From a bacterium (GTDB lineage: Bacteria; Patescibacteriota; UBA1384; XYA2-FULL-43-10; JAKAMI01), in assembly GCA_021812945.1 (NCBI GenBank), contig JAKAMI010000002.1, positions 1,047-65,046 on the forward strand: 64,000 nucleotides of DNA, in the 5' to 3' direction. Both the position numbers and the translations under genes were made by a program. This document shows, piece by piece, positions 1,317 to 56,282 of this stretch (positions are counted from its first letter, which is position 1; every line of letters begins with the position of its first letter). The notes beneath the pieces were generated by a model. That model searched no databases, was not told the DNA's origin, and was given only the letters and a program-made list of their open reading frames with translations.

Positions 1317-2354
1317 TTAACGTCTAATTTTTTCCGCCATCTTGAAAAGCTGGTATTTTGTTTTGTTGAAAACCAGGTCGTAGCTACCCAGAAGATCGAC
1401 TTGACGGCCGCCGAACTGTTTTTTGAAGCGGGTTACTCCAGCCCATGGATGCTTGGGATTATTGTCCGGCGCGATGCCGAAGAAGTCGTATTCGACGCAT
1501 CCTTTGGTCTTGGCGTCTTTGATGATCTCCCAGTGCAGTTTGTAAGGCGCCATCAGCTCGCGGTGTTTACTGCTCGATCCGCCAAAGAGATAGGTCGCTC
1601 TTTTATCGTAGTAGGTGACAATGGCGGCGGCAAGGATAGTTGACTCGTTGACTCGTTGACTCGTGGATTCGTTACTCGATTCGTAATTTTGTACTTTTGT
1701 TGTTCCATTTGTACTTTCGTGAGGGGCGCGCGCTTCGCGCGCCAGGAACACTTGAACATAGTCCTTTTCTTTCAAAATGTCAACCAGTTTTTGGAAATAT
1801 TGTTCGTTGCGGTAGGTAATCTTTTGTCTCTTTGCCATGATTTGGTAGAGCTGAAAGAATTCGCGGACGGAATCGGTTTTTTCAATGATTATCCCGCTAC
1901 GCTCGGCAACCCTAATATTATATCTGCCTTTCGGTTTCATTTGTTCCAGAATCTCTGCCTCTGTCCGGTCGATATCGAGTATGAGCGTATGTTCGGGTTG
2001 CATCTCCTCAAAAGCCTTAATGTAGTCCGAAAGTCCCAAAGTCCCAAAGTCCTGAGTCGCCGGTATGTCAAACTCGGCGCGGCAGAAGATGGCTTTGTTT
2101 TCTGATGCGATATTTTTGATTTGTTTTAGATAACTTTGAGATTTGAGGTCTGAGACTTGAGATGCGCCCAACATGGGCGAATATAGCATCGACCATCCAA
2201 GTGGTAATTTCTTCTGCAGCAATAAAATACCGCTTACTCGGTAAGATTTTGAGTAGCCTGTTTTCAGTTTGAACTTTTCCCATTCCGGTGTCTGAAATAT
2301 TGATGACATTGGTTTCATCTTATCAAAAAAAGCCCCCGAAAGCGAGGAAGTCAA
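1317..2354 (-). CDS. FemAB-family peptidoglycan interpeptide-bridge transferase, with an in-frame repeat insertion
   Basis: 345 aa. The C-terminal half (YDFFGIAPDNNPKHPWAGVTRFKKQFGG) is typical of FemAB/FemX. An internal stretch ESTNGTTKVQNYESSNESTSQRVNEST is encoded by tandem ttgactc heptamers plus a tacaaa repeat. Confidence 0.7.
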   Translation of the reverse strand: MTSSLSGAFFDKMKPMSSIFQTPEWEKFKLKTGYSKSYRVSGILLLQKKLPLGWSMLYSPMLGASQVSDLKSQSYLKQIKNIASENKAIFCRAEFDIPATQDFGTLGLSDYIKAFEEMQPEHTLILDIDRTEAEILEQMKPKGRYNIRVAERSGIIIEKTDSVREFFQLYQIMAKRQKITYRNEQYFQKLVDILKEKDYVQVFLAREARAPHESTNGTTKVQNYESSNESTSQRVNESTILAAAIVTYYDKRATYLFGGSSSKHRELMAPYKLHWEIIKDAKTKGCVEYDFFGIAPDNNPKHPWAGVTRFKKQFGGRQVDLLGSYDLVFNKTKYQLFKMAEKIRR

Positions 2355-2438
2355 AAAACTTAGAACCCCGCGGGGAGCGGGGTTCGCAGTTGGGATCGGG
2401 GAGCAACGGAAGCGAGGAGATCTTGGCTGAGGAAATGG

Positions 2439-2939: not shown

Positions 2940-2951
2940 GCGGGTTTGAGC

Positions 2952-3287: not shown

Positions 3288-3389
3288 GAACGTCCCTCCA
3301 TGTGCGAGCTTGGTCTGTCTAATTCTAAAATAGATAATATTATATGCACTGTCTAGACCTCGAAGCTATAATCTGTTATTTTGGAGGAT

Positions 3390-4856
3390 ATGAAAGAGAT
3401 TAAAATATTGGCCATAGAAACAAGTTGCGATGAAACCTGCGCAGCCGTTATCATGGCTGCCTCCTCGCGAAAGTACAAAAACTACAAAAGTACAAACATT
3501 GGAGAATGCCCGGTCGTTTTGTCGAATGTGGTGAGTTCGCAGATCGACCTGCACGCAAAAACCGGCGGCATCGTGCCGGAGGTGGCGAGTCGAGCGCATA
3601 TAGAGGTGATCGTCCCTGTTATTCGCGAAGCGCTCATAATAGCAAACCCTAAACTCGAAATTCTAAACTCTAAAAAAATTCAAAAATCTAAAAATAAGAT
3701 CAGCGCTGTGTTAGAGAACAATTTAGTAATTCAGCAATACAGCAATGAAATTTCGGAAATGCTTTCCGAAATTACCCACATCGCCGTGACTTCCGGGCCG
3801 GGGTTGGTCGGGGCGCTGTTGGTAGGGTTTAACACGGCCAAAACATTGGCGTATTCGCTGAATATTCCCATCGTGCCAATTAACCATATTGAGGGACACA
3901 TTTACTCGGCGATGGCCTCTGTGCCTGTCATTGCTAGGGCCGGTGTTTCGGCCCGTGGCAATCTAGCAAAGGAGATTGCCAGGTCGCCCCTCCTCGCAAT
4001 GACAAAGGGAGGGGTCAACTTCCCCATCTTGGCTTTGACAGTCTCGGGTGGTCATACTTCGCTTACCATAATGAAAGACCATGGAGTCTATGAAAACATC
4101 GGCCACACCATAGATGATGCAGCGGGCGAGGCATTTGATAAAGTGGCCAAGTTATTGGGACTAGGCTACCCGGGAGGACCGGCTGTTTCTAAACTCGCTG
4201 AAGAGTTTAGAAACAGAATAATCAATAATCAAGAGACAATAACCAAACAAATTCCAAATTCTAAATCTCAAAATCTCAAACCGGACTTCCGGACTTCCGG
4301 ACTTTCGGACTCGGGACTTGTATTTCCCCGTCCGATGCTCAATTCGGGAAACTTTAACTTTTCTTTCTCAGGACTCAAAACCGCGGTTCTAAATATAGTC
4401 CATAGTCTAAAAGTCCAAGAGTCCAAAGGTGAAAATTCGAAGACTTTAGGACTTCCGAACTTTCGGACTCAGGACTGGCGACCGGAGGTCGCCTTCGCTT
4501 TTGAAGAGGCGGTGGTGGATGTGCTGGCGACCAAGACGATGAGAGCGGTACTTAAATACAAACCGAAAACCGTGGTTCTAGCCGGCGGGGTGGCGGCGAA
4601 TAATCGATTGAGATCAGAACTACAGGGAAGGATTGAGACATATAATCACGGTCATCCTGAACTTGTTTCAGGATCCCATGGTAGACTGGAGGATTCTTCG
4701 GCTGCGCCTCAGAATAATGTGTCGTTGTTGATGCCTCCTCCGGAAATGTGTGGGGACAATGCGGCCATGATCGGACTGGCGGCGTACTACCACATTTTCC
4801 GCGGAGAAACTCCAAAATGGCACGAAATAAGTCTTGATGCCAATGCAAAACTGTAA
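3390..4856 (+). CDS. tsaD: tRNA N6-adenosine threonylcarbamoyltransferase TsaD (Kae1/Gcp family), about 150 aa longer than usual because of repeat insertions
   Basis: MKEIKILAIETSCDETCAAV N-terminus and GPGLVGALLVG motifs. An SD (ttggaggat) precedes the ATG at 3390; the ORF track starts at an upstream TTG. Inserts: [72 protein letters not shown]. Confidence 0.85.
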   Translation: MKEIKILAIETSCDETCAAVIMAASSRKYKNYKSTNIGECPVVLSNVVSSQIDLHAKTGGIVPEVASRAHIEVIVPVIREALIIANPKLEILNSKKIQKSKNKISAVLENNLVIQQYSNEISEMLSEITHIAVTSGPGLVGALLVGFNTAKTLAYSLNIPIVPINHIEGHIYSAMASVPVIARAGVSARGNLAKEIARSPLLAMTKGGVNFPILALTVSGGHTSLTIMKDHGVYENIGHTIDDAAGEAFDKVAKLLGLGYPGGPAVSKLAEEFRNRIINNQETITKQIPNSKSQNLKPDFRTSGLSDSGLVFPRPMLNSGNFNFSFSGLKTAVLNIVHSLKVQESKGENSKTLGLPNFRTQDWRPEVAFAFEEAVVDVLATKTMRAVLKYKPKTVVLAGGVAANNRLRSELQGRIETYNHGHPELVSGSHGRLEDSSAAPQNNVSLLMPPPEMCGDNAAMIGLAAYYHIFRGETPKWHEISLDANAKL

Positions 4857-4887
4857 TTGATTACCATTTTATGATAATTTAGGGCTA

Positions 4888-7377
4888 ATGAAGAAAATTA
4901 TTTCAAAATCGTGGGAACCGGAAAAGTACGAGAAAAAGCTCTACTCTACTTGGGAATCGAAAGGTTATTTCAAACCGGAAATCAATCCGGAGGGTGAGCC
5001 ATACTCGATCATCATGCCGCCGCCAAACGCCAACGGCTCCCTGCACCTGGGGCATGCGGTTTTCGTGACTCTCGAGGACATTATGACCCGCTATGCCCGG
5101 ATGCAAGGCAAGGCTGCTTTGTGGCTGCCGGGCGCCGACCACGGCGGATTTGAAACTCAGATTGTATTCGAAAAAAAGCTGGAGAAAGAGGGCAAGAGCC
5201 GGTTCGGTATGGATCGTAACGAGCTTTACCGGATGATGTGGGATTTTAGCTTGGAAAATAAATCCGGGATGGAAGATCAGCTGAGAAAATTAGGCGCCAG
5301 CTGTGATTGGGATAGGGAAAAATTCACGCTGGATGAGGATATTGTCAAAATAGTCAACGAGACCTTTGTCAAATTATACAATGACGGACTGGTATATCAG
5401 GATCTACGGCCTGTCAACTGGTGCACCAAACACCAGACCTCGCTTTCCGATCTGGAAGTGAAATACGAGGAACAAACAGATCCACTCTACTTCGTCAAAT
5501 ATCAAATATCAAATATCAAATATCAAAAATATAAATCTAAAATCAAAAATTCAGAATACTTAACGATCGCGACTACAAGGCCGGAAACAATATTCGGTGA
5601 TACCGCAATCGCCGTCAGCCCAAACGATAAACGGTTTGCGGAATTGATCGGGTTAAGCGTGAAGATACCGTTGACCGAGATCGAGATTCCGGTCATTGCC
5701 GACAAAATGGTTGATCCGAAGTTTGGGACCGGCGCGGTTAAGATTACTCCGGCTCATGATCCGAACGACTTTGAAGCCGGCAAGCGCCACAATCTTGAGA
5801 TCAAAGAAGTCATAGATCAATACGGCCGGTTGAACGAAAAAGCCGAACCGTTCGCCGGATTAAAAATCTTCGAAGCCAGACGACAGGTGGTCGAGGCGAT
5901 GAAAGAAAAGGGCATTTTGGAAAAAGTCGACGAAAACTATATTCACACCGTCGGCAAGTGCTACAAATGCGGCGCGGTTATCGAACCGCGAGTCTCAAAA
6001 CAGTGGTATATCGCGGTCAACAAAAAGGGTAAAAAAAGCGGGAAAATATTAGCAAAAGACGCTCTGGAGGCGGTCAAAACCGGCAAGATCAAATTTGTCT
6101 CCGAAAAGTTTGAAAAGATTTTTTATCACTGGCTGACCAATATTCGCGACTGGAACATCTCGAGGCAGATCGTTTGGGGCATCAGACTTCCGGTTTGGTA
6201 CCGGAAGTCTAATATCAAAGATCAAATATCAAATGTCAAAAATGCAGATCAAAAATCTCAAAATGAAAATACAAAAAATGCGATAAGCACCCGCGAGGTG
6301 GGCTTTGACTCCTCGGGGGTGGGAGACGGTGAAGTAAGTGAAGTATATGTGGGGATAAATCCACCCGACGGCTGGATTCAGGAAACTGATGTGTTCGATG
6401 CCTGGTTTTCGTCCGGACAATGGCCCTTCGCCGCTTTGAAAGCGCAAAGCGGCTTGAGTTCAAAAGTCCAAAAGTCCAAAAGTCCAGAGTCGTCGGATGA
6501 TTATCAGAAATTTTACCCGACGGCGGTGATGGAAACCGGTTGGGACATCCTCTTTTTCTGGGTGGCGCGGATGATCATGCTGGGACTTTACGAGACCAGT
6601 CAAGTGCCTTTCAAAACCGTTTACCTGCACGGACTGGTGCGCGACAAAGACCGGCAAAAGATGAGTAAATCCAAAGGAAACGTCATTGACCCTCTCGGGG
6701 TGGCTGAGCAGTACGGCACCGATGCAGTGAGGCTGGCTCTGGTTTTCGGTACCTCGGCCGGTAACGACATTGTCATCTCCGAGGAGAAAATCCGCGGCAT
6801 GCGCAACTTCACCAACAAGATCTGGAACGCCTCTCGCTTTGTTCTGATTAACATTTCGGGTGGCGACATCGCGGCCGGAGAGGTCGGGGATATCAGAATA
6901 CAGAATACAGAGTACAGCTCGGAATATTTGACCGAAGCCGATCAACAAGTTCTTAAAGTTCATAAAGTTATAAAGTCGAAAGTTATCAAGTATCTTGAGA
7001 ATTATCAGTTTTCCCAGGCGGCTGAGCTTCTTTATGACTTTTTCTGGCACGACTTTTGCGACAGCTATATCGAAGCCAGCAAGCAGCAACTTGCTCCCCC
7101 TCGCGAAAGTACAAAAAAGGACACAAAAGTACAAAATTACAAATCAGAGATTGCCACGTCGCAGACTACTCGCCATGACGGTAACAATGAAACAATGAGA
7201 CAATGGGACAATGAAGTTTCTGAAAACACCAAAAAGGTCTTAATTAAAATTTTATCGGAAACCCTAGCCATGCTTCATCCCTTCATCCCCTTTGTCACCG
7301 AAGCCGTCTGGCAGGAGCTACGCGAAGTCTACTCCGAGCTTAAAAAGTCTATTATGATCTCTACTTGGCCGAAATAA
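4888..7377 (+). CDS. valS: Valine--tRNA ligase (class I aaRS) with several in-frame repeat insertions
   Basis: PPPNANGSLHLGHA (HIGH), KMSKSKGN (KMSKS), WCTKHQTSLSDLEV. Insertions such as KYQISNIKYQKYKSKIKNSEY, ISTREVGFDSSGVGDGE, SSKVQKSKSPESS and PPRESTKKDTKVQNYKSEI...NNETMRQWDNEVSENT match repeats found elsewhere in the window. Confidence 0.8.
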   Translation: MKKIISKSWEPEKYEKKLYSTWESKGYFKPEINPEGEPYSIIMPPPNANGSLHLGHAVFVTLEDIMTRYARMQGKAALWLPGADHGGFETQIVFEKKLEKEGKSRFGMDRNELYRMMWDFSLENKSGMEDQLRKLGASCDWDREKFTLDEDIVKIVNETFVKLYNDGLVYQDLRPVNWCTKHQTSLSDLEVKYEEQTDPLYFVKYQISNIKYQKYKSKIKNSEYLTIATTRPETIFGDTAIAVSPNDKRFAELIGLSVKIPLTEIEIPVIADKMVDPKFGTGAVKITPAHDPNDFEAGKRHNLEIKEVIDQYGRLNEKAEPFAGLKIFEARRQVVEAMKEKGILEKVDENYIHTVGKCYKCGAVIEPRVSKQWYIAVNKKGKKSGKILAKDALEAVKTGKIKFVSEKFEKIFYHWLTNIRDWNISRQIVWGIRLPVWYRKSNIKDQISNVKNADQKSQNENTKNAISTREVGFDSSGVGDGEVSEVYVGINPPDGWIQETDVFDAWFSSGQWPFAALKAQSGLSSKVQKSKSPESSDDYQKFYPTAVMETGWDILFFWVARMIMLGLYETSQVPFKTVYLHGLVRDKDRQKMSKSKGNVIDPLGVAEQYGTDAVRLALVFGTSAGNDIVISEEKIRGMRNFTNKIWNASRFVLINISGGDIAAGEVGDIRIQNTEYSSEYLTEADQQVLKVHKVIKSKVIKYLENYQFSQAAELLYDFFWHDFCDSYIEASKQQLAPPRESTKKDTKVQNYKSEIATSQTTRHDGNNETMRQWDNEVSENTKKVLIKILSETLAMLHPFIPFVTEAVWQELREVYSELKKSIMISTWPK

Positions 7378-11436: not shown

Positions 11437-12456
11437 TTAACGCTTTTCCAAAACCTCGCCCAGGGCTTCCTGCCAGGGGCGCATGGTGAGGCCGTATTTA
11501 TTCAACTTGGCTTTGGTGAGGTAGGAGTAGGCCGGGCGTTTGGCGGGGGTGGGGTACTCGGCGGTGGCGATAGGTTTGAGACCTATTTTAACCTTCGACT
11601 GTTTAAAAATTTCCTTGGCAAAATCATACCAAGAAGCTTCGCCCTCGCCGGTGGCGTGGTAGATACCGTAGGGAAGAGGGGCATTGCTTGATTGTTTCAT
11701 CCTGCTCCGCTCTTCTGGAGCTATGAGGGACACGGTTGCTTCATTGTTGTCATCCTGAACTTGTTTCAGGATCTCTGCGTTTGAATTTTGGGACCCTGAA
11801 ACAAGTTCAGGATAACGGTTTCGGAAGATAATTTCAGCAATCACCCCAACCAGGTCGCCGGTGTAGGTGGGGGAGCCGATTTGGTCGCTGACGACCGAGA
11901 TTGAATCGCGTTCTTTGGCCAGTCTCAGCATCGTCTCAACGAAATTCGAGCCAGGATGACCCTGTGGCAACTCGCCGTAAAGCCAGGCGGTGCGTATAAT
12001 ATAATACTTGTCGCAGACTGCCTGAATCGCTTTTTCGCCTTCCAACTTGGTTTGGCCGTAGAAGTTGACCGGATCGGTCGGATCGTCCTCATTTATTGGG
12101 ACGTTACCGGTACCCGGGAAGACGTAATCGGTCGAAATATACAACAACGTCGTATCTTTTTCGGCGGCGATTTCAGCCAGGTTTTTGGTTCCGACGGCAT
12201 TCACTTTATAGCAAAGTTCCCGACCCTCACCCTCGGCCTTGTCGACCTGGGTATAAGCGGCGGCGTGAATAATGAAGTCGGGCTTTTCTCTTGACAAAAC
12301 CCGCTCAATCATCGTTTTGTCGGTAATATCCATCTCCTCGGAGTCAGTGAGTATTAGTTGGTAGTCAGTCGTCGGTTGTCGGTTGTCAGGGACCTGAAGT
12401 CGTTCGATCAATTTGTTCCCGAGCTGGCCCTTGGCGCCGGTGATTAGAATTTTCAT
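11437..12456 (-). CDS. rfbD: dTDP-4-dehydrorhamnose reductase (RmlD) carrying two in-frame repeat insertions
   Basis: MKILITGAKGQLG Rossmann start at the ATG 12456, with an SD supplied by the upstream palindromic element. Inserts are VPDNRQPTTDYQL (ggttgtc repeats) and a roughly 100 nt double gtcatcctgaacttgtttcaggat palindrome encoding [23 protein letters not shown]. Confidence 0.8.
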   Translation of the reverse strand: MKILITGAKGQLGNKLIERLQVPDNRQPTTDYQLILTDSEEMDITDKTMIERVLSREKPDFIIHAAAYTQVDKAEGEGRELCYKVNAVGTKNLAEIAAEKDTTLLYISTDYVFPGTGNVPINEDDPTDPVNFYGQTKLEGEKAIQAVCDKYYIIRTAWLYGELPQGHPGSNFVETMLRLAKERDSISVVSDQIGSPTYTGDLVGVIAEIIFRNRYPELVSGSQNSNAEILKQVQDDNNEATVSLIAPEERSRMKQSSNAPLPYGIYHATGEGEASWYDFAKEIFKQSKVKIGLKPIATAEYPTPAKRPAYSYLTKAKLNKYGLTMRPWQEALGEVLEKR

Positions 12457-12461
12457 AAATG

Positions 12462-12553: not shown

Positions 12554-12560
12554 AAGCTTT

Positions 12561-20141: not shown

Positions 20142-20148
20142 ACGTTTT

Positions 20149-20236
20149 CCCCTCGCAAATCTACAAATTTTACAAAAATACAAATTGCACGTCGCGCGTT
20201 ATTTGTACTTTTGCTAGATTTGTAGATTCGCGAAGG
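20149..20236. repeat. Family-A palindromic element, copy 4, immediately upstream of ugd (provides its aaggag SD)
   Basis: cccctcgcaaatctacaaattttacaaaaatacaaat...atttgtacttttgctagatttgtagattcgcgaaggag. Confidence 0.7.
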
Positions 20237-20252
20237 AGAGAGGAGTTTTGTC

Positions 20253-39338: not shown

Positions 39339-40892
39339 ATGAAGCAGGCTCTATATCAAAAATACCGGCCGAAAGATTTTTCGGCAGCCATCGGCCAAGA
39401 GAAAATCGTCCAGACGCTCAAAAACGCCTTAAAAAGCGGCCGCACCGGTCACGCTTATCTTTTTGCCGGCCAGCGAGGAACCGGCAAAACAACTTATGCC
39501 CGAATTTTGGCTCAATCGCTCAACTGTCAAAAACCCAAAGACGGGAATGGGCCGTGTTTCGATTGTCAGTTTTGCCAAGCCGCCGGAAAGGGTCAAGCCA
39601 TCGACATTATCGAGATAGACGCCGCCTCCAACCGCGGTATTGACGAGATTCGCGATTTGCGCGAGAAGATCAGATTTGCCCCGACTCTGGGGAAATATAA
39701 GGTTTACATCATCGACGAAGTCCATATGCTGACCAAAGAAGCCTTCAATGCGCTTCTAAAAACCCTTGAGGAGCCGCCGCCGCACGTTGTCTTCATCATG
39801 GCAACGACCGAAGCGCACAAGCTGCCGGCCACTATTCTTTCCCGAGTCCAGCGGTTCGACTTTGGCCGGATTCCGATCGCCGACATTACCAAGAATTTAC
39901 GCCTGATTGCCGATAAAGAGAAAATTGAAATCGACGACGAGGCTTTGTTGATCATCGCCGGCAAAGCCGACGGCAGTCACCGAGACGCTATTTCGCTCTT
40001 GGAACAGATTAAATCGTACGCTACCAAAATCTCTGCCAAGGAGGTGGGGGAGGTTTTGGGTTTGGTTGGAAATGATCTGATTTATCGGCTCCTAGGTTCA
40101 ATGGTTGAGGCTGATTTGAAGCAAGCGCTGGTTCAAATCGAGAGCTACTACGAGGGCGGTTTTGATTTGAGCCAGCTGGCCTTGTCGCTGGTGGAGACAA
40201 TCCGAAAAGCGATGCTCTTAAAATCGGGGGTCATTGAAAAATCGGACTTGACTAAGGAAGAGGCTGAGGGCATAGCCAAGTTGGAAAAATTATCTGCCGA
40301 CCGACTGATAGTCGGTATTGAACAATTATCTTCCGCAGGCAGGGAAACCAAGATTAGCTCGATTCAGAGTCTGCCGCTGGAGCTGGCAGTGTCGAGAATC
40401 GTCAAGGCATGGGATATGAACGATTCCCCTACGAAATTACAAATAGATCAACGAAAGCACAAAAGTACTAATGATACAAATTCCCATCAACCCACCTCGC
40501 GGGAGTCAAAGCCCACCCCCGAGGTGAATTCGGACATCAACAATAAAACAATGAAGCAATCGGACAATGAAACTGACGCAACTTTAGATGATAGGACTTG
40601 GAAAGAGATTCTGGATCGGATAAAGTTGCAGAACCATACCTTGCAAGCGCTGCTTCGGGATATTAAACCCCTCGGGATTGTAGAAGGAAGACTCAAGCTT
40701 TGCGCTAAGTTCAAATTTCACAAGGACAAGGTTTCCGAGATTGGAAATCGCCAGTTAGTTGAAAAGATAATTACCGAGGTGACGGGACAAAAACTGCCAA
40801 TCTTCTGCGAGCTGGCCGATGAAACCGCCGGCAAGCGAAAAGGGCTGAAAGAAGATGAGCTGTTGCAAGTAGCGGAGGAAGTGTTTTCATAA
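39339..40892 (+). CDS. dnaX: DNA polymerase III subunit gamma/tau with a composite repeat insertion
   Basis: YRPKDFSAAIGQEKIV...LFAGQRGTGKTT...CQFCQAAGKG...IDEVHML. Insert DQRKHKSTNDTNSHQPTSRESKPTPEVNSDINNKTMKQSDNETD is three concatenated repeat modules. Confidence 0.85.
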   Translation: MKQALYQKYRPKDFSAAIGQEKIVQTLKNALKSGRTGHAYLFAGQRGTGKTTYARILAQSLNCQKPKDGNGPCFDCQFCQAAGKGQAIDIIEIDAASNRGIDEIRDLREKIRFAPTLGKYKVYIIDEVHMLTKEAFNALLKTLEEPPPHVVFIMATTEAHKLPATILSRVQRFDFGRIPIADITKNLRLIADKEKIEIDDEALLIIAGKADGSHRDAISLLEQIKSYATKISAKEVGEVLGLVGNDLIYRLLGSMVEADLKQALVQIESYYEGGFDLSQLALSLVETIRKAMLLKSGVIEKSDLTKEEAEGIAKLEKLSADRLIVGIEQLSSAGRETKISSIQSLPLELAVSRIVKAWDMNDSPTKLQIDQRKHKSTNDTNSHQPTSRESKPTPEVNSDINNKTMKQSDNETDATLDDRTWKEILDRIKLQNHTLQALLRDIKPLGIVEGRLKLCAKFKFHKDKVSEIGNRQLVEKIITEVTGQKLPIFCELADETAGKRKGLKEDELLQVAEEVFS

Positions 40893-44111: not shown

Positions 44112-46187
44112 ATGGGTATTTTGGAGCAACTTAATCCTGAACAACGTGAAGCTGTGACCACCACCAGTGGTCCAGTTTTAGTGCTCGCGGGTGCAGGCAG
44201 CGGCAAAACTAGAGCGTTGACCTACCGGATTGCTTATCTGATTCAAGAAAAACGGGTTTCACCGTATTCGATACTAGCCGTGACCTTCACTAATAAGGCA
44301 GCGCACGAAATGAGTAACCGGGTTGCCCGCCTGCTCGCGTTTTCGTTGAATAAGACCAATTGGCCAAATGAGTCTAATTTGACCAATAAACTTCCTTGGC
44401 TGGGGACGTTTCACTCCATTTGCGTCAAAATTCTAAGACGCGAAGCCAACCACCTGGGTTACGAGCGCAGCTTCACTATCTACGACGATCAAGACCAGCA
44501 AGCGGTCATCAAAAAGATCTTACGAGATCTGCAGCTCGACCCTAAGAAAACTTCACCATCATCGATATCTTACTTTATCTCCGGGGCCAAAGCTGAACTT
44601 ATGACAGCGGCCGAATATACCAAGTATGCAACTTATGGCTTTCAGAAAATTGTCAGTGAGGTCTATTTCGCTTATGAAAAAGCTCTGAAGCGAGCCGAGG
44701 CAATGGACTTTGACGACCTAATTCTAAACTGCGTGCGCCTATTTCGTGAGTTCCCGGAGCTGTTAGAAAAATATCAGCGTCAGTTTCAATATATTTTAAT
44801 CGACGAGTACCAGGACACCAACCACGCCCAATACGTTTGGGCTAAATTGCTGGCTTCAGACCATCACAATATTTGTGTGGTGGGCGATGATTTTCAGTCG
44901 ATCTATTCTTGGCGCGGGGCGAATTTTCGCAACATTTTAGACTTCGGCAAAGATTATCCGGAAGCTAAAATTATCAAAATGGAGCAGAACTATCGCTCGA
45001 CCAAATCAATTCTGGGTGCGGCGCAGGGGGTGATAGAAAAGAATAAGGATCGAACCGACAAGAAACTTTGGACCGAGAACAAAGAGGGGGTGCCGGTAAC
45101 GGTTTTCGAGGCGGGGAGCGACCGTGACGAAGCGGACTTTGTCACTCGCGAAATTCGCGCTCTGAGAATGAACAGCCTAAATTACTCAGATTTTGCCATT
45201 TTATACCGTACTAATGCTCAGTCGCGGCAGTTTGAGGAGACTTTTATCCGCTACGGCATCCCGTACCAAATTATCGGCGGAGTCAGCTTCTACCAACGGC
45301 GCGAAGTGAAGGATGTCATCGCTTACCTGCGCTACATTCACAATCCGCGAGACCTGGTCTCGTTGGAGCGGATTATAAATGTACCGGCTCGGGGGATTGG
45401 GCCAAAAACAGCGGAGCTGCTTTTGGAAGTCAAAAGTCAAAAGTCAAAAGTCAAAAGTATGGAAGAGCTACCAGATAAGGTCAGAAAGTTTGAGGAGATG
45501 ATTACCAGTTTGCGTGAATACTATCAGAAACATTCCATAGTCGAGCTAATAGATACCTTGGCTCGAATGACGGGGTATAAGGATTATCTGCTGGACGGGA
45601 CGCCGGAGGGAGAGGCGAGGTGGGAAAACATTGAGGAGCTGATGAACATTGCGGCGGCACAAGCCGCCCCCTACGAAAATACAAAAGAAGGCACGAAAGT
45701 ACGAAAGTACAAATCTGGAGACGAACCGGTACCTCAGAATACCATTCCAGCCTCTCGCTCCGTCATTCCTGCGAAAGCAGGAATCCAGACTGGATCCCAG
45801 ATCGAGTCTGGGATGACGAGTAGCCGCGAGACGGATAATCAACTCGAGGAGTTTCTTGAGCGGGTTAGTTTGTATCAAGACTCGGAAAAATTGGACAAAG
45901 ACCGCGATGCGGTGGTTTTAATGACTTTGCACGCAGCCAAGGGCTTGGAATACGATACGGTTTTCATCGCCGGTCTGGAGGAAGGTATTTTCCCGCACTC
46001 CAGAAGCTTGACCGAAAAAGATCAGTTGGAGGAGGAGAGACGGCTTTGTTACGTCGGCATGACCCGGGCACAGAAAAGGCTATACCTGCTATATGCCCGC
46101 CAGCGGCTTTTTCATGGCAACATAATGGCGTCTCTCCCCTCAAGATTTTTGGGGGAAATACCAGCAGAGTTCACAGACATTCTGTGA
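44112..46187 (+). CDS. uvrD: ATP-dependent DNA helicase UvrD/PcrA with repeat insertions
   Basis: LNPEQREAV, AGAGSGKTRALTYR, TFTNKAAHEM, ILIDEYQDTN, VGDDFQSIYSWRGA. Inserts NKTNWPNESNLTNKLP, EVKSQKSKVKSMEE, YENTKEGTKVRKYKSGDEPVPQNTIPASRSVIPAKAGIQTGSQIESGMTSS. Confidence 0.85.
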   Translation: MGILEQLNPEQREAVTTTSGPVLVLAGAGSGKTRALTYRIAYLIQEKRVSPYSILAVTFTNKAAHEMSNRVARLLAFSLNKTNWPNESNLTNKLPWLGTFHSICVKILRREANHLGYERSFTIYDDQDQQAVIKKILRDLQLDPKKTSPSSISYFISGAKAELMTAAEYTKYATYGFQKIVSEVYFAYEKALKRAEAMDFDDLILNCVRLFREFPELLEKYQRQFQYILIDEYQDTNHAQYVWAKLLASDHHNICVVGDDFQSIYSWRGANFRNILDFGKDYPEAKIIKMEQNYRSTKSILGAAQGVIEKNKDRTDKKLWTENKEGVPVTVFEAGSDRDEADFVTREIRALRMNSLNYSDFAILYRTNAQSRQFEETFIRYGIPYQIIGGVSFYQRREVKDVIAYLRYIHNPRDLVSLERIINVPARGIGPKTAELLLEVKSQKSKVKSMEELPDKVRKFEEMITSLREYYQKHSIVELIDTLARMTGYKDYLLDGTPEGEARWENIEELMNIAAAQAAPYENTKEGTKVRKYKSGDEPVPQNTIPASRSVIPAKAGIQTGSQIESGMTSSRETDNQLEEFLERVSLYQDSEKLDKDRDAVVLMTLHAAKGLEYDTVFIAGLEEGIFPHSRSLTEKDQLEEERRLCYVGMTRAQKRLYLLYARQRLFHGNIMASLPSRFLGEIPAEFTDIL

Positions 46188-47315: not shown

Positions 47316-47392
47316 CGATGTTGTCATTCCCGCTTTAGGCGTGCGAATCCACTAATAAATTAGGAATCGGGTAGATTCCCGCCTTCGCGGGA

Positions 47393-48499
47393 ATGACGGA
47401 AAAAGAGGTAGGGATAATCAAAATAAAAGTTACTGAAATCAAACAATTTCTGAGCGAAAATCAGACTTGGGCCAAGAAGAGTTTTGGCCAGCATTTTTTG
47501 GTTGACGAGAATGTTTTAAGCAAAATTGTGGCCACGGCCGAATTATCAAAATCAGATCGAGTCTTGGAGATCGGTCCGGGCTTGGGGGTCTTAACCGATC
47601 AACTAATTGAACGTGCAGGTGAAGTTGTAGCTATCGAAGCAGACCGGTTCTTAGCCAGTTGTCTGGCTAAGAAATATCAAACCCTACAACACGTCATTCC
47701 AGTGAAAGCTGGAATCCAGGGATTAGAAAAAACTGGATCCCAGATCAAATCTGGGATGACAGAGAAAGATGACTTTGGACTTTCAACTTTCAACTTTCAA
47801 CTAATTGAAGGTGACGCTTTGAAAGTCATCGACAGCCTGGAATTTAAAAGGGGATTTCGATCGAAACCTTATAAAGTGATCGCCAATATTCCATATTCGA
47901 TAACATCAAAATTATTAAGGCTGCTACTGGAAGAATATCAACCAACCTCAATCACTTTTTTGGTGCAAAAAGAGGTGGCGGAGAGGGTTTGCGCCAAGCC
48001 CGGTCGGATGAGCCTTTTATCATTATCCGTCCAATACTTCGGCACCCCGAAGATCATCGCCACCGTTCCGGCCGGAGCTTTCTGGCCACAACCAAAAGTT
48101 GAGTCAGCAATTTTGCACATCAAGTTGACCACGATACACACACCTGCCTGCCGGCAGGCAGGGAAATCAATTCACAGAGAGGACACAGAAAATTTAACCC
48201 TGCCCACCTCCGAGGAGTCAGAGCCCACCTCGGAGGTGTTTACGGGCAAAAATAATGAAACAATGAAACAATCTAGCAATGAGCTATTCAAACTGGCCAG
48301 AATCGGTTTAGGTTCCAAGCGGAAAATGCTGGCGCACAATTTATCGACCGGCTTAAGTCTTCCGCGGGAAGAAATTGTTGATATAATAAAATCGGTGGGA
48401 CTTAAGGAAACAGTCAGAGCGCAGGAGCTAAGCGTTAAGGAGTGGGAAGAATTATCACGCTCCCTCGCGAATCTACAAATTTGGCAAAAATACAAATAA
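47393..48499 (+). CDS. rsmA: 16S rRNA (adenine1518/1519-N6)-dimethyltransferase RsmA/KsgA with two composite repeat insertions
   Basis: SFGQHFLVDENVL...VLEIGPGLGVLT...IANIPYSITS. Inserts VIPVKAGIQGLEKTGSQIKSGMTEKDDFGLSTFNFQL and HTPACRQAGKSIHREDTENLTLPTSEESEPTSEVFTGKNNETMKQSSNE. Confidence 0.85.
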   Translation: MTEKEVGIIKIKVTEIKQFLSENQTWAKKSFGQHFLVDENVLSKIVATAELSKSDRVLEIGPGLGVLTDQLIERAGEVVAIEADRFLASCLAKKYQTLQHVIPVKAGIQGLEKTGSQIKSGMTEKDDFGLSTFNFQLIEGDALKVIDSLEFKRGFRSKPYKVIANIPYSITSKLLRLLLEEYQPTSITFLVQKEVAERVCAKPGRMSLLSLSVQYFGTPKIIATVPAGAFWPQPKVESAILHIKLTTIHTPACRQAGKSIHREDTENLTLPTSEESEPTSEVFTGKNNETMKQSSNELFKLARIGLGSKRKMLAHNLSTGLSLPREEIVDIIKSVGLKETVRAQELSVKEWEELSRSLANLQIWQKYK

Positions 48500-53909: not shown

Positions 53910-56282
53910 ATGACCGCTCTCAAACTTGATTCACCCATCCAATACCTAAAAGGTGTGGGGCCGAAGCTGGCTGAGAAATTAAAAAGGCTGGAAATAGAAA
54001 CTCCGGCCGATCTTTTGTACCATCTGCCGCGGACCTACATTGACTACTCGCAAACGGTCCCGATCAAATCCACCCGCATCGGCGATCTTGTCGTTATTAA
54101 AGGAAAAATATCGGATCTCAGCATCAAACGCACGCCGCGGAAATGGATGGCCATCGTCGAGTTTTTGGTATCGGATCATTCAGGCTCGATCAAAGTTGTC
54201 TACTTCAACCAGCCCTACCTCAAAGACACCTTTAAAAACGGCGAGGAACTCTATTTTTACGGTAAAATTAACTATGACTATTCCGGCTCGATTAAGTCTC
54301 TCAACAGTCCGGACTTCAGCCGCGAGCCGAAGATCGTACCCATTTACCCGGAAACAAAAAACGTCAACAGTAAATACCTAAACAAGTTAGTAGTCGGTTG
54401 TCTGTCGTCAGTTGACAGCGCCAGAGAATATTTGCCCGAGGAAATAAAAACTCAAGCTAAGCTGGTGAATATCGAGCAAGCCCTGAGGTTTCTCCACCAA
54501 CCGGCCAAAATGGCCGAGGTTGGGTCGGGGCGCCGGCGCCTAGCCTTTGACGAACTCTATTTAACGGCTCTGCAAACGCAAATTTTTCGACAACAACGTC
54601 GGGAGCAAAAGGCGGTACGGGTCAAGATTGATAACAAAGAGCTGGTAAGTTTTGTCGACCAGTTGCCGTTTAAACTAACCGCTGCCCAAAAAAGGGCGGC
54701 TTGGCAAATCTTGCTTGACCTAAGGGGTCAAACTAAGTCCGGAGTCCAAGAGTCCAAGAGTCCAAGAGGGAAGACTTCCGGACTTCCGGACTTTAGGACT
54801 TTGGACTGGATTCCTCCGATGAATCGGCTGCTCAATGGTGATGTCGGTAGCGGCAAGACGGTGGTGGCGGCTATGGCAGCCTATGCGGTCATAAAGGCCG
54901 GTTACCGAGTCATCGTCATGGCGCCAACCGAAGTATTGGCTTTTCAACATTACAACACCTTTCAAGAAATTTTGGCTAAATACGACATCAGTGTTGGCCT
55001 GGCGACAAGTTCTAGAAAGGAAACATCACTTTCTGTCATTCCTGTGAAAGCAGGAATCCAGACGAAGAAAACTACTGGATCCCGGATCAAGTCCGGGATG
55101 ACGGACAAAAACAATAAAACAATGAAGCAATTGAACCATGTTTTTGAGACATGTGACCTCCTGGTTGGTACCCATGCGGTACTAGAAGATACTTTTAATC
55201 ATGAAAAGGTGGCGCTGGTGGTGGTTGATGAACAACACCGGTTCGGAGTCGAGCAGAGGGCAAAGATACAAAGAATGACAAGCTCCAGGAACGTCATTCC
55301 AGCCCCTCATCCTGTCATTCCAGCGAAAGCTGGAATCCAGAAATCATCAAAAGCCACTGGATCCCGGATCAAGTCCGGGATGACAAATGAGGACAAAGGA
55401 ATCCAAGCTCACTTCCTTTCGATGACCGCCACACCAATACCAAGAACGCTGCAGCTGACGCTTTACGGCGACTTGGATGTTTCGGTCATCGATGAGATGC
55501 CGAAAGGGCGTAAAGAAATCGAGACTAAGGTTTTTGCCGATCGTGATCGTGAAAAAGCTTATGACCTCATTAGGGATCAGGTAAAGTTGGGGAGACAAGT
55601 GTTCATTGTCTGCCCCTTGATCGAGGAAAATCAGGAGCAAGGTGGGCAAAGACAGTCTTTGCAAAAGGAGCAAAGACTGGCTTTACCCGAATTAGATCGG
55701 AAAACAGTGGTAGCGGAACAGAAAAGACTCAAAGAACAGGTATTTCCGGACTTAAAGATTGGGCTAATGCACGGGAAACTCAAGCCCAAGGAGAAAGAAG
55801 TAGTGATGAATGAATTTACCAGTCGCAAACTAGATATATTAGTCAGTACCTCGGTGGTCGAGGTAGGTGTCGATGTGCCGAATGCCAGTGTGATGATGGT
55901 CGAAAATGCCGAAAGATTCGGCCTAGCTCAGTTACACCAGTTCCGCGGCCGGGTCGGTAGGGCGGAGCATCAATCTTACTGTTTATTAATGTCATCCAGC
56001 CCTCGTCCGGAAAACATCAAACGCTTGAAAGCTATGGAAACGCATGCTTCCGGGTTTAAGTTGGCGGAGATTGATTTGGAGCTTCGTGGACCGGGAGTTA
56101 TTTACGGCAAAGAGCAATCGGGCTTCGGTGACTTGAGGCTAGACTGGGTTTCTGATATATTTCTACTAGAGGAAGCGCGTGAAGCGGCCAAGAAAACACT
56201 GACCTTGAATCCGAGTCTGTCGTCCTGGCCGGGACTGCGAGAAAAACTTGGCGAGAAGTTCGGAGAAGCACATTTAGAATAA
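53910..56282 (+). CDS. recG: ATP-dependent DNA helicase RecG with three composite repeat insertions
   Basis: LKGVGPKLAEKL (HhH), wedge domain, GDVGSGKTVVA, DEQHRFGV, helicase motifs. Inserts KSGVQESKSPRGKTSGLPDFRTLDW, SVIPVKAGIQTKKTTGSRIKSGMTDKNNKTMKQLNH and VIPAPHPVIPAKAGIQKSSKATGSRIKSGMTNEDKG. Confidence 0.85.
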   Translation: MTALKLDSPIQYLKGVGPKLAEKLKRLEIETPADLLYHLPRTYIDYSQTVPIKSTRIGDLVVIKGKISDLSIKRTPRKWMAIVEFLVSDHSGSIKVVYFNQPYLKDTFKNGEELYFYGKINYDYSGSIKSLNSPDFSREPKIVPIYPETKNVNSKYLNKLVVGCLSSVDSAREYLPEEIKTQAKLVNIEQALRFLHQPAKMAEVGSGRRRLAFDELYLTALQTQIFRQQRREQKAVRVKIDNKELVSFVDQLPFKLTAAQKRAAWQILLDLRGQTKSGVQESKSPRGKTSGLPDFRTLDWIPPMNRLLNGDVGSGKTVVAAMAAYAVIKAGYRVIVMAPTEVLAFQHYNTFQEILAKYDISVGLATSSRKETSLSVIPVKAGIQTKKTTGSRIKSGMTDKNNKTMKQLNHVFETCDLLVGTHAVLEDTFNHEKVALVVVDEQHRFGVEQRAKIQRMTSSRNVIPAPHPVIPAKAGIQKSSKATGSRIKSGMTNEDKGIQAHFLSMTATPIPRTLQLTLYGDLDVSVIDEMPKGRKEIETKVFADRDREKAYDLIRDQVKLGRQVFIVCPLIEENQEQGGQRQSLQKEQRLALPELDRKTVVAEQKRLKEQVFPDLKIGLMHGKLKPKEKEVVMNEFTSRKLDILVSTSVVEVGVDVPNASVMMVENAERFGLAQLHQFRGRVGRAEHQSYCLLMSSSPRPENIKRLKAMETHASGFKLAEIDLELRGPGVIYGKEQSGFGDLRLDWVSDIFLLEEAREAAKKTLTLNPSLSSWPGLREKLGEKFGEAHLE

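What the first reader, a model, noticed from the sequence alone, without database searches (positions are those of the whole stretch)
3390..7377. Essential genes carry in-frame, stop-free insertions of short repeat families that also occur intergenically
tsaD (491 aa against about 340 usually) and valS contain multiple insertions whose nucleotide sequences recur nearly verbatim in unrelated genes and in intergenic spacers. The tacaaa/aagtacaaa element gives SRKYKNYKSTN in tsaD, RESTKKDTKVQNYKSEI in valS, YENTKEGTKVRKYKSG in uvrD, QRKHKSTND in dnaX and ESTNGTTKVQNYES in the FemAB gene. The ggacttccggacttt element gives SGLPDFRTLDW-like peptides in tsaD twice and in recG. The agtccaaaagtccaa element gives KVQKSKSP in tsaD, valS, recG and the TrmB-like gene. 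The gtcatcctgaacttgtttcaggat hairpin gives PELVSGS in tsaD and rfbD. Every intragenic copy keeps the host frame open. This matches the Rickettsia palindromic element phenomenon of selfish palindromic DNA surviving inside ORFs, which does not appear to have been described for this kind of organism, and here several distinct families co-occur.
Basis: partly seen in the sequence, partly recalled or inferred. Interest (0 to 1): 0.85.

Follow-up and report, generated by a model that had tools for sequence, protein, structure and literature searches.

The report
Mobile repeats translated inside essential genes
In this small-genome Patescibacteria (CPR) bacterium, short dispersed DNA repeats have been copied in frame into surface loops of essential proteins such as TsaD and ValS; they include the hairpin motif cut by the recently described Ssn single-strand nucleases, and I found no report of this Rickettsia-like situation for CPR bacteria.

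Summary
tsaD (491 aa) and valS (829 aa) carry six and five in-frame inserts. These lie at sites where orthologues vary, and AlphaFold confidence is low there. Their DNA recurs in other genes and in spacers: 180 self-BLAST matches against 0-1 in shuffles. Three independent assemblies agree.

The Rickettsia palindromic element (RPE) analogy holds for the outcome only. The repeats fall into separate classes that nest into mosaics.

1. Hairpins (PELVSGS, VIPAKAGIQ, LLAMT peptides) have the form CGTCAT-stem-loop-ATC. This is the published Ssn-related motif (SRM/NTS), cut as single-stranded DNA by small GIY-YIG nucleases. The strict pattern hits 6 times against 0.25 expected.
2. A-rich 7-9-nt arrays (TACAAA, CAATGAAA and others) form about 95-nt palindromes in spacers. 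Inside genes they occur only with the A-rich strand as sense (17 of 17).
3. Short GC-rich palindromes.

No target-site duplications were found, and the local ISL3 element is unrelated.

Related genomes fill the same loops with their own repeats and carry hairpin-flanked GIY-YIG genes. The exact tsaD hairpin occurs in at least 120 metagenome contigs. It is mostly intergenic there, but sits in frame in ValS, SecA, YchF, RmlB and TatD.

No ssn gene lies in this window, and how the arrays are copied is unknown. Verdict: a new variant of a known kind.

The parts
3381..4856 (+). tsaD, 491 aa, with six in-frame inserts
   Evidence: NCBIfam TIGR03723 at 327.6 bits. Inserts located from PDB and orthologue alignments. 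AlphaFold pTM is 0.84, with pLDDT dips at the inserts.
3461..3497 (+). tsaD insert 1: single arm of the TACAAA family (SRKYKNYKSTN)
   Evidence: Aligns with the left arms of the intergenic palindromes (A7). nhmmer E=2e-5.
3651..3700 (+). tsaD insert 2: A-rich 7-8-nt oligomer array (LEILNSKKIQKSKNK)
   Evidence: Families D4/D5. Self-BLAST segment 3663-3692.
3927..4003 (.). tsaD insert 3: inverted pair of GTCATTGC-type hairpins (VIARAGVSARGNLAKEIARSPLLAMT)
   Evidence: Relaxed SRM hit at 3974-4003(-). pLDDT is 41-43 here. The relative L118 has a strict SRM doublet in the same loop.
4249..4318 (+). tsaD insert 4: A-rich array followed by a GGACTT arm
   Evidence: Families D4 and D15. nhmmer E=1e-8.
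4412..4478 (.). tsaD insert 5: whole AGTCCAAG/CTTNGGACT palindrome (VQESKGENSKTLGLPNFRTQDW)
   Evidence: 79% identical over 67 nt to recG 54743-54809.
4650..4678 (+). tsaD insert 6: SRM-type hairpin GTCATCCTGAACTTGTTTCAGGATCCC (HPELVSGS)
   Evidence: Identical copies at 11749 and 56351. The exact 25-mer occurs in at least 120 metagenome stretches, some next to GIY-YIG genes.
4888..7377 (+). valS, 829 aa, with five in-frame inserts
   Evidence: NF004349 at 894.9 bits. Alignments to 1GAX and to syntenic orthologues.
5494..5559 (+). valS insert 1: CAAATAT array (ISNIKYQKYKSKIKNS)
   Evidence: 82% identical over 66 nt to valS 6207-6272. Absent in three orthologues.
6207..6324 (+). valS insert 2: CAAATAT-type array followed by a CACCC...GGGTG GC-rich palindrome
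   Evidence: The palindrome recurs at 25544, 25900, 40491 and 48203.
6461..6491 (+). valS insert 3: AGTCCAA array (SKVQKSKSP)
   Evidence: nhmmer E=0.0016. Absent in orthologues.
7096..7215 (+). valS insert 5: mosaic of a TACAAA arm, a degenerate reversed GTCAT hairpin and a CAATGAAA array
   Evidence: Absent in orthologues.
1678..1726 (-). TACAAA arm inside the FemAB-like gene (HESTNGTTKVQNYE)
   Evidence: The insert site varies among five orthologues.
11749..11817 (.). Inverted doublet of the PELVSGS hairpin inside rmlD ([23 protein letters not shown])
   Evidence: Absent in two orthologues.
40424..40571 (+). dnaX mosaic: TACAAA arm, CACCC palindrome and CAATGAAA array
45666..45818 (+). uvrD mosaic: TACAAA arm followed by an SRM hairpin doublet (VIPAKAGIQ...GSQIESGMT)
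47692..47761 (.). SRM hairpin doublet inside rsmA (strict pattern hit at 47692-47719)
54743..55385 (+). recG inserts: AGTCCAAG palindrome (54743-54809) and two SRM doublets (55033-55103, 55312-55385) with a CAATGAAA array
   Evidence: Three strict SRM hits. The hairpin at 55075-55103 is 100% identical over 27-29 nt to Sphingomonadaceae plasmids.
20148..20241 (.). Reference intergenic TACAAA palindrome. Other full copies: 12461-12559, 14931-15050, 15913-16021, 21541-21649, 48459-48549
   Evidence: The copies fold at -44 to -61 kcal/mol and show no target-site duplication.
47371..47398 (-). Intergenic strict SRM, CGTCATTCCCGCGAAGGCGGGAATCTAC, which fits the dRS3 core ATTCCC-N8-GGGAAT. A twin lies at 50733-50760. 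Other intergenic hairpins: 29759-29835, 56350-56417, 61162-61190
   Evidence: dRS3 and NTS definitions are from PMC11893778.

Best explanation
What is there. tsaD and valS, and also femAB, rmlD, dnaX, uvrD, rsmA and recG in the same window, are intact housekeeping genes. Their permissive surface loops have been colonised by copies of dispersed repeat modules. There are three classes.

(1) 25-30-nt hairpins of the form (C)GTCAT-stem-loop-stem-ATC(C/T), single or as tail-to-tail inverted doublets. These are Ssn-related motifs (SRM/NTS), the ssDNA recognition and cleavage sites of small single-domain GIY-YIG nucleases.
(2) A-rich 7-9-nt oligomer arrays with a CCCCTCGCGAA clamp. In spacers these pair into palindromes of about 95 nt. 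In genes they occur as single arms.
(3) Short GC-rich self-complementary palindromes.

How it most likely works. The modules are copied to new sites without target-site duplication. They land next to or inside one another, building mosaics like the Neisseria NIMEs and the enterobacterial BIMEs. Selection then keeps, inside ORFs, only copies that are in frame, stop-free, hydrophilic and in loops that tolerate extra residues. The result is hypervariable loops in essential proteins across this clade.

Shown: homology between genic and intergenic copies; insert positions; SRM membership of the hairpins; conserved hairpin structure with compensatory changes; orientation and frame biases; recurrence in relatives and in metagenomes; hairpin-flanked GIY-YIG genes in relatives.

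Inferred: that an Ssn-type nuclease, or an ssDNA hairpin-based process linked to it, spreads the hairpins in this genome; that the inserts are translated; and whatever copies the A-rich arrays.
For: Repeats are real.
- 180 HSPs against 0-1 in shuffles.
- Three assemblies are identical.

Insert positions.
- Every repeat segment in TsaD, and all but one in ValS, falls in a gap of the alignments to solved structures and orthologues.
- Among 93 TsaD orthologues, six sites vary from 0 to 30-52 aa.
- pLDDT falls to 41-67 exactly at the inserts, with pTM 0.84 overall.

Hairpins are SRMs.
- A3 aligns 19 copies with GTC, AT...AT and the 3' C invariant or nearly so. 98.6% of cells are paired, 4 of 8 stem pairs show double changes, and 0 of 500 shuffles reach the covariation score.
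- The three bases 5' of the palindrome and the C after it are the positions reported to control SsnA cleavage and binding.
- The published SRM pattern hits 6 times against 0.25 in shuffles. A relaxed pattern hits 19 times against 0.33.
- One hairpin is identical over 27-29 nt to Sphingobium, Novosphingobium and Rhizorhabdus plasmids.

Link to GIY-YIG genes.
- L118 and L115 carry GIY-YIG genes of 105 and 88 aa flanked by such hairpins, and L118 TsaD holds an SRM doublet in the insert-3 loop.
- Of 120 metagenome stretches fetched only by the tsaD 25-mer, 9 carry a small GIY-YIG homologue. In 7 of those the hairpin lies 2-125 nt from the gene.

Copying rather than only slippage.
- valS 5494-5559 and 6207-6272 are 82% identical over a non-periodic 66 nt; tsaD and recG share 79% over 67 nt.
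- A 21-nt palindrome is nested precisely in two TACAAA palindromes, with no duplication.

Selection.
- All 17 arrays are A-rich on the sense strand (P=1.5e-5).
- The frame in use is the most hydrophilic open frame in 20 of 34 copies, against 11.6 expected (P about 0.001).

Generality.
- Relatives fill the same loops with their own repeats.
- The exact hairpin sits in frame in ValS, SecA, YchF, an RmlB-type dehydratase and TatD of other organisms.
Against: - No GIY-YIG gene lies in the 64-kb window. The rest of the genome could not be reached.
- The GIY-YIG genes of the relatives were not compared directly with N. meningitidis SsnA or with cd10448. They fit on size, single domain and SRM flanks only.
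- The Ssn paper shows cleavage and an effect on transformation, not transposition, so how SRMs spread is unknown even for the type system.
- Only 6 of about 19 hairpins pass the strict published pattern.
- The A-rich arrays and GC-rich palindromes have no known enzyme. Why genic TACAAA copies are always single arms is unexplained.
- Copies within a family are related, so the covariation and frame statistics overstate the number of independent events.
- Translation of the inserts is inferred from open frames only.
Confidence: 0.7

Rival explanations
1. Classical MITEs. The repeats are non-autonomous derivatives of a DDE transposon, for example the ISL3 element in the window. They would be moved by cut-and-paste transposition and would be truly RPE-like.
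For: An ISL3-family transposase lies at 28394-29611. The TACAAA and AGTCCAAG elements are long inverted repeats of MITE-like size.
Against: No target-site duplications flank the six full palindromes or the nested 21-mer. The ISL3 inverted repeats (GGCTCTAT...GTGTGG) share nothing with any repeat family. Most genic copies are single arms or 25-nt hairpins, not complete elements with two ends.
Confidence: 0.07
2. Local slippage only. The inserts are low-complexity expansions generated in place by replication slippage, as in Plasmodium proteins. Resemblance between loci would then come from shared composition.
For: Many inserts are tandem 7-9-nt units. The same loops hold similar low-complexity peptides in relatives, for example ISNDQFLISNKIPNPK at valS insert 2.
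Against: Shuffles in 60-nt blocks give no matches. Long non-periodic matches link distant loci (66, 67 and 49 nt). Hairpins with a conserved head and compensated stems cannot arise by slippage. Slippage probably does adjust array length after arrival.
Confidence: 0.1
3. Host-selected function. The genic copies are kept because they are useful. As DNA, SRMs inside essential genes could shorten recombination tracts of incoming ssDNA. As peptides, they could act as disordered linkers or interaction tags.
For: In Neisseria, SsnA cuts transforming ssDNA near NTS and lowers its integration. The window encodes DNA-uptake parts: PilB, PilC and a ComEA-like HHH_3 protein. Genic hairpins keep perfect stems. 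In this window 11 of 17 hairpins are genic, against 12% for the same 25-mer in metagenomes.
Against: Insert content differs completely between orthologues at the same site, as expected for neutral turnover. Perfect stems may simply mean the copies are young. No experiment bears on this.
Confidence: 0.1
4. Artefact. The inserts are assembly chimeras, or are removed before or after translation.
For: Repeats are a known cause of misassembly in metagenomes.
Against: Three independent assemblies agree base for base over 3.4 kb. Every insert keeps the frame in 8 or more genes. The inserts have no intein or intron features and measure 10-45 aa. The same phenomenon is seen in unrelated contigs.
Confidence: 0.03

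Closest known systems
Ssn-related motifs (SRM) / Neisseria Transformation Sequence (NTS, which contains dRS3) and Ssn GIY-YIG ssDNA nucleases (Nat Commun 2025, PMC11893778)
   Same: The hairpin format CGTCAT-palindrome-ATC is the same, and so are the invariant positions. The window hits the published search pattern. One copy fits dRS3, ATTCCC-N8-GGGAAT. Exact matches occur in the SRM-rich Sphingomonadaceae. Relatives and metagenome loci carry hairpin-flanked small GIY-YIG genes. Mosaic clustering resembles NIMEs.
   Different: The paper describes the motifs around genes, in RefSeq genomes that are mainly Pseudomonadati. Its main text has no occurrence of Patescibacteria or Candidatus, and none of intragenic or in-frame. 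Here 11 of 17 copies are translated inside housekeeping genes. No ssn gene lies in this window.
Rickettsia palindromic elements (RPE; Ogata et al. 2000, as summarised in PMC10969869)
   Same: Repeated palindromic DNA is inserted in frame in unrelated housekeeping genes and in spacers. The positions are compatible with protein folding. Several families occur in a reduced-genome symbiont.
   Different: RPEs are about 100-150-bp whole elements, each family encoding a conserved peptide. Here the units are 25-30-nt hairpins, single arms and oligomer arrays in mosaics. Sequence relatedness was not tested.
REP / BIME / REPIN elements with RAYT (IS200/IS605-like) transposases
   Same: Short imperfect palindromes with a conserved unpaired head, inverted doublets, mosaic clusters and no target duplication.
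   Different: The head is GTCAT, not GTAG. No Y1 transposase lies in the window. REPs are by definition extragenic.
Low-complexity inserts in Plasmodium falciparum housekeeping proteins, and uptake-signal sequences inside Haemophilus ORFs (from my own knowledge)
   Same: Hydrophilic, fast-evolving inserts or short genomic motifs are tolerated in poorly conserved parts of essential proteins.
   Different: Those arise by slippage or uptake bias. Here there is no single dominant k-mer, and distant loci share long non-periodic copies.
Coxiella QMITE1, ERIC and RU intragenic MITEs (PMC5896051, PMC2759123)
   Same: Small repeats overlap ORFs and add peptides.
   Different: Those are 100-400-bp elements with direct repeats at their ends, and they rarely sit in core enzymes.

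Membership tests
Ssn-related motif (SRM/NTS) | Matches the published degenerate pattern HGTCWYN(0-2)YYVSBRHN(0-5)WNVSBRGN(0-2)RNCYNB and is enriched over dinucleotide shuffles | tested here: met
   6 hits against a mean of 0.25 (maximum 2) in 100 shuffles. A relaxed GTCAT-stem-C pattern gives 19 against 0.33. Many copies pass only the relaxed form.
Ssn-related motif (SRM/NTS) | Hairpin with an oriented, conserved 5' flank (3 nt before the palindrome) and a C right after it | tested here: met
   A3: GTC, AT...AT and the 3' C are invariant or nearly so in 19 copies. 98.6% of cells are paired, and 4 of 8 pairs carry compensatory changes.
Ssn-related motif (SRM/NTS) | Spatial association with a small single-domain GIY-YIG (ssn) gene, often flanked on both sides | tested here: inconclusive
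   No GIY-YIG ORF lies in the window. The feature is met in relatives L118 and L115. It is also met in 7 of 9 GIY-YIG-bearing metagenome loci fetched by the tsaD hairpin alone. Assignment to cd10448 was not checked.
Ssn-related motif (SRM/NTS) | Cut by its cognate Ssn nuclease as ssDNA only | not testable with these tools
   This needs a biochemical assay.
Rickettsia palindromic elements (RPE) | In-frame insertion into unrelated ORFs at structurally permissive sites, with copies also in spacers | tested here: met
Rickettsia palindromic elements (RPE) | Whole palindromic units of about 100-150 bp, each family with a conserved peptide | tested here: not met
   Genic copies are 25-77-nt hairpins, single arms or arrays. 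Only 4412-4478 and 54743-54809 are whole 67-nt palindromes.
Rickettsia palindromic elements (RPE) | Sequence homology to the RPE-1 to RPE-10 families | not tested
   No RPE consensus sequence was available. Plasmid pRF of R. felis holds no strict SRM hit and a single relaxed hit, probably chance.
MITE | Target-site duplications flanking the element | tested here: not met
   None at the six full TACAAA palindromes or at the nested 21-mer.
MITE | Terminal inverted repeats shared with an autonomous IS | tested here: not met
   The ends of the only IS in the window (ISL3, 28390-29726) are unrelated to any repeat family. Other IS copies elsewhere in the genome were not seen.
REP/REPIN-RAYT | GTAG head, extragenic location and a RAYT gene | tested here: not met
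   The head is GTCAT. 11 of 17 copies are genic. No Y1 transposase was found among the ORFs of at least 90 aa picked by a greedy non-overlapping selection.

The most novel reading that the evidence does not exclude
Ssn-SRM systems, so far described as intergenic hairpins that modulate transformation, may be a general engine of 'coding palindromes' in reduced-genome symbionts. In CPR bacteria they would seed, and then attract further repeats into, hypervariable loops of essential enzymes. The 25-year-old Rickettsia RPE puzzle could be the same process, since the Ssn paper lists Rickettsia and Wolbachia among SRM-rich genomes. That would give in-frame selfish DNA a named enzyme and an assay.
Probability: 0.25. 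Interest if true: 0.8.

Novelty: new variant of a known kind. Interest (0 to 1): 0.62.

Why it matters
About a quarter of TsaD in this organism is repeat-derived sequence, and similar loads sit in ValS, RecG, UvrD, DnaX and RsmA. That matters in four ways.

1. **Annotation and alignment.** Gene annotation, protein-family alignments and phylogenies of CPR bacteria are affected by mobile DNA that looks like protein. Inserts of 10-45 aa arise independently at the same sites in different genomes.
2. **Scope of a new repeat-nuclease pair.** The Ssn/SRM pair would extend to Patescibacteria and to coding sequence. This raises the question of whether cutting ssDNA at sites inside essential genes shapes recombination in organisms that live on imported DNA.
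3. **A natural experiment.** The hypervariable loops show which loops of universal enzymes tolerate insertions.
4. **A testable enzyme for an old question.** If the link to Rickettsia elements holds, it offers a candidate enzyme for a long-standing problem.

Tried and rejected
- **Wasted genome scan.** A genome-contig scan with the 16-mer TCGCRAATCTACAAAT returned only single chance hits in unrelated phyla. The pattern was too short for 596 Gb.
- **ISL3 as the parent element.** Rejected: its ends are unrelated to any repeat family.
- **Target-site duplications.** None found.
- **Uptake-sequence idea.** No dominant over-represented 7-9-mer; the top 9-mer has 15 copies.
- **Rfam.** Two tRNAs at the gathering threshold. 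The palindromes give only sub-threshold hits to plant miRNA hairpins.
- **Intrinsic terminators.** The TACAAA palindromes are not called as terminators.
- **GIY-YIG gene in the window.** Searched by regular expression and tblastn; absent.
- **This organism's ssn gene.** Looked up through one homologue (P0149); it came from other samples.
- **Solved structure or supplement for SsnA.** None available for a direct comparison.
- **GTCATTGC palindrome against plasmids.** No match.
- **R. felis plasmid pRF.** No strict SRM hit and one relaxed hit, probably chance, so the RPE-SRM link stays untested.
- **Closer relative for empty-site comparison.** None exists in the protein database; the best non-self TsaD is 53% identical.

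Full report
**1. What the region is**

The window comes from a Patescibacteria (CPR) genome. Its closest named TsaD relatives are Candidatus Berkelbacteria, and the best non-self hit is only 53% identical.

- ORF 3381-4856(+) is TsaD: TIGR03723, 327.6 bits, with the match broken into four stretches.
- ORF 4888-7377(+) is ValS: NF004349, 894.9 bits.
- It also identifies RsmA at 47393-48499.

**2. Check of the observation**

Every quoted peptide is present.

A self-BLASTN of the window at E<=0.01 gives 180 matches in 63 segments covering 3459 nt. Ten shuffles that keep dinucleotides within 300-nt or 60-nt blocks give 0 or 1 match.

Two ENA assemblies and one Logan assembly reproduce window 2408-5856 without a mismatch. 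The inserts are therefore not assembly artefacts.

**3. Where the repeats sit in the proteins**

TsaD was aligned to solved TsaD chains of 327-354 aa. This leaves six unaligned blocks, at residues about 24-43, 87-124, 179-211, 276-312, 343-368 and 418-450.

In an alignment of 93 orthologues (360-546 aa), the same six sites are the only long variable regions. Occupancy at each runs from 0 up to 30-52 aa.

An AlphaFold model built on that alignment is confident overall (pTM 0.84, mean pLDDT 81). Confidence drops to 41-67 exactly in those blocks.

All six TsaD inserts contain DNA that recurs elsewhere in the window.

ValS shows five inserts against T. thermophilus ValRS and against three syntenic orthologues. 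Those at 5494-5559, 6461-6491 and 7096-7215 are absent from all three orthologues. The RmlD and FemAB inserts are likewise absent or different in orthologues.

One repeat match, valS 6947-6991, lies in a conserved helix and is not an insertion. The TrmB-like example is weak (E=0.023) and lies in a conserved domain.

**4. The repeats are several things, not one**

*(a) Hairpins.*
- The window holds 86 perfect hairpins (stem of at least 7, loop 3-9), against about 20 in shuffles.
- Nineteen of them align as (C)GTCAT-stem-loop-stem-ATC(C/T).
- The GTC head, the AT...AT base of the stem and the C after the stem are invariant or nearly so.
- The inner stem varies by compensated double changes. 98.6% of cells are paired, 4 of 8 pairs carry double changes, and 0 of 500 shuffles reach the covariation score.
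- This class gives the [25 protein letters not shown]...GSRIKSGMT and VIAR...LLAMT peptides.
- Many copies are tail-to-tail inverted doublets. Examples are rmlD 11749-11817, uvrD 45762-45817, rsmA 47693-47760, and recG 55035-55102 and 55314-55384.

*(b) A-rich arrays.*
- These are tandem 7-9-nt units such as TACAAA, CAAATAT, CAATGAAA, AGTCCAAG and AAGTCAAA.
- The TACAAA family has a CCCCTCGCGAA clamp.
- In six spacers between co-directional or divergent genes it forms palindromes of about 95 nt. These fold at -44 to -61 kcal/mol.
- The genic copies align with the left arm of those palindromes (A7).
- GGACTT and AGTCCAAG are the two arms of one palindrome. It is translated whole in tsaD 4412-4478 and recG 54743-54809.

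*(c) Short GC-rich palindromes.* These are CACCCTCGAGGTGGG... and CCTGCCTGCCGGCAGGCAGG.

The classes are joined into mosaics:
- TACAAA arm, then hairpin, then CAATGAAA array in valS 7096-7215.
- TACAAA arm, then CACCC palindrome, then array in dnaX.
- Hairpin doublet, then array in recG.
- A 21-nt GC palindrome nested precisely in the right arm of two TACAAA palindromes.

**5. Identification of the hairpins**

A literature search for the Neisseria dRS3 repeat led to the 2025 description of the Ssn nucleases (PMC11893778). According to that paper:
- The NTS is CGTCATTCCCGCGMAVGCGGGAATCYRG. A variant is CGTCATACTCGGGNNNNNCCCGAGTATC. The general Ssn-related motif (SRM) has a published degenerate pattern.
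- SsnA is a 94-aa single-domain GIY-YIG protein. It binds and cuts the motif only as ssDNA.
- The three bases 5' of the palindrome govern cleavage, and the C just 3' of it governs binding. These are the invariant columns of my alignment.

Tests on the window:
- The published pattern hits 6 times, against 0.25 in 100 dinucleotide shuffles. Four of the six hits lie inside rsmA and recG. A relaxed version hits 19 times against 0.33.
- The two intergenic strict hits, 47371-47398 and 50733-50760, fit the dRS3 core ATTCCC-N8-GGGAAT.
- The recG hairpin CTGGATCCCGGATCAAGTCCGGGATGAC is 100% identical over 27-29 nt to plasmids of Sphingobium, Novosphingobium, Rhizorhabdus wittichii and Sphingopyxis. The paper names R. 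wittichii and Sphingomonas among organisms that carry these motifs.
- A VIPAKAGIQ-type pattern occurs in 96 IMG/VR stretches.

**6. Link to GIY-YIG genes**

No GIY-YIG ORF lies in the window. Evidence from elsewhere:
- Syntenic relatives have one. L118 carries a 105-aa GIY-YIG gene. A strict SRM overlaps its 3' end and a relaxed SRM lies just upstream.
- L115 has an 88-aa gene flanked by GTCATTGC-type hairpins.
- This protein family is 65-80% identical across Patescibacteria, Dadabacteria, Proteobacteria, Ignavibacteria and Thermotogae. TsaD of the same clade is only about 50% identical to its nearest relatives. That contrast fits horizontal mobility.
- Nine of those stretches carry a small GIY-YIG homologue. 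In seven of the nine the hairpin lies 2-125 nt from the gene, and in one it flanks the gene on both sides.

I could not compare these proteins directly with N. meningitidis SsnA or with cd10448.

**7. Generality**

- In four related genomes, TsaD inserts match other loci of the same genome. The families there are partly genome-specific.
- L118 TsaD carries a strict SRM doublet in the same loop as insert 3 here.
- L117 ValS carries the exact PELVSGS 25-mer, read as ILKQVQDD.
- Across metagenomes, 13 of 107 copies of that 25-mer (12%) lie inside long open frames. The figure for random positions in the same loci is 66%. The element is therefore normally depleted in genes.
- The 13 genic cases include another ValS (inserted after the conserved PVWY motif, where valS insert 2 sits here), SecA, YchF, an RmlB-type dehydratase, TatD, a type III methylase and a solute-binding protein.
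- In this window 11 of 17 credible hairpins are genic, an unusually high share.

**8. Signs of selection and of copying**

- The genic copies are stop-free in 3.6 of 6 frames on average. An open frame is therefore weak evidence on its own.
- The frame in use is the most hydrophilic open frame in 20 of 34 copies, against 11.6 expected (P about 0.001).
- All 17 genic arrays have the A-rich strand as sense (P=1.5e-5).
- The CAATGAAA array is used in its only open sense frame in all four genes.
- Copies within a family are related, so these tests overstate independence.
- Long non-periodic identity argues for copying between sites rather than slippage alone. valS 5494-5559 and 6207-6272 share 82% over 66 nt, and tsaD and recG share 79% over 67 nt.
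- No target-site duplications were found.
- The only transposase in the window is ISL3, and its ends are unrelated to any repeat family.

**9. Interpretation**

Best supported: dispersed repeat modules are copied without target duplication and nest into mosaics. Inside genes they survive only where they are in frame, hydrophilic and in permissive loops.

The hairpins are members of the SRM class. An Ssn-type nuclease, or an ssDNA process tied to it, is the most likely agent of their spread. This is an inference, because the published work shows cleavage and not transposition.

What copies the A-rich arrays, and why genic TACAAA copies are always single arms, remains unexplained.

**10. Comparison and novelty**

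The outcome matches Rickettsia palindromic elements, but the units do not (see the membership table).

Ten full-text searches found no description of this for CPR or Patescibacteria, and no paper holding both the terms 'Rickettsia palindromic' and 'GIY-YIG'.

In the main text of the Ssn paper, the words Patescibacteria, Candidatus, intragenic and in-frame do not occur.

I rate this a new variant of a known kind, of moderate to high interest.

Noticed in passing
window 28390-29726: An ISL3-family insertion sequence. The transposase ORF is 28394-29611(-), and the inverted repeats are GGCTCTATGTCAAGTGGTGTGG and CCACACTGTTTAGTATAGAGCC. A pair of SRM-type hairpins (29759-29835) sits just outside one end.
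   Followed up: partly
window 22550-22644 and 27464-27558: A 95-nt copy of the 3' end of the glycosyltransferase gene 21668-22672 reappears in non-coding DNA near the IS and a cluster of GTCATCCTGAG-type hairpins (27344-27460). This suggests a past rearrangement.
   Followed up: no
window 25050-27660: A 2.6-kb stretch of about 55% GC, against 45-50% elsewhere, with no Pfam-supported ORF. It contains two CACCC...GGGTG palindromes (25544, 25900).
   Followed up: no
window 36365-38935 (-): One open frame joins an HU-type DNA-binding domain (aa 33-122) to MshEN plus a PilB/T2SSE ATPase (aa 343-852). This is either a real fusion or a stop-free spacer between two genes.
   Followed up: no
window 8349-8478 and 10074-10108: A separate hairpin family, AAAGACAGTCTTC-N9-GAAGACTGTCTTT. 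Three copies lie in tandem at 47-48-nt spacing, with a fourth 1.6 kb away. All are intergenic and bracket tRNA-Arg and two small genes.
   Followed up: no
window 53550-53654: A 21-nt tandem repeat inside ORF 53481-53837, encoding DARFEKI heptads. It is a true in-frame tandem repeat, unlike the dispersed families.
   Followed up: no
window 43459-44378: Arrays of 9-nt units of the ATTGGTCTAAT type. They lie in and around a 23S-rRNA-IVP-like ORF (43523-44089) and the 5' part of uvrD. A second IVP-like ORF is at 57258-57761.
   Followed up: no
window 10131-11246 (-): A PhdYeFM antitoxin-like protein with a P/T/D-rich low-complexity tail of about 280 aa. The tail contains the GTTGTCGG repeat (DNRQPTTDN), which also occurs in rmlD (12357-12389) and recG (54385-54420).
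   Followed up: partly
window 6947-6991, 39276-39312 and 42416-42452: An AAGTT-period repeat in valS matches two intergenic copies, yet it encodes a conserved helix (VLKVHKVIKSKVIK). It may be a chance resemblance, or a repeat may have overwritten coding sequence.
   Followed up: partly
window 35041-38935 and 56442-56924: DNA-uptake and type IV pilus genes (PilC/T2SSF, PilB, a ComEA-like HHH_3 protein) lie close to SRM hairpins (56350-56417). This is relevant because SsnA acts on transforming ssDNA in Neisseria.
   Followed up: no
L118 17889-17919: In a relative, the last ten codons of the GIY-YIG nuclease gene (NTGSSGQARG*) are themselves encoded by a strict SRM hairpin.
   Followed up: partly
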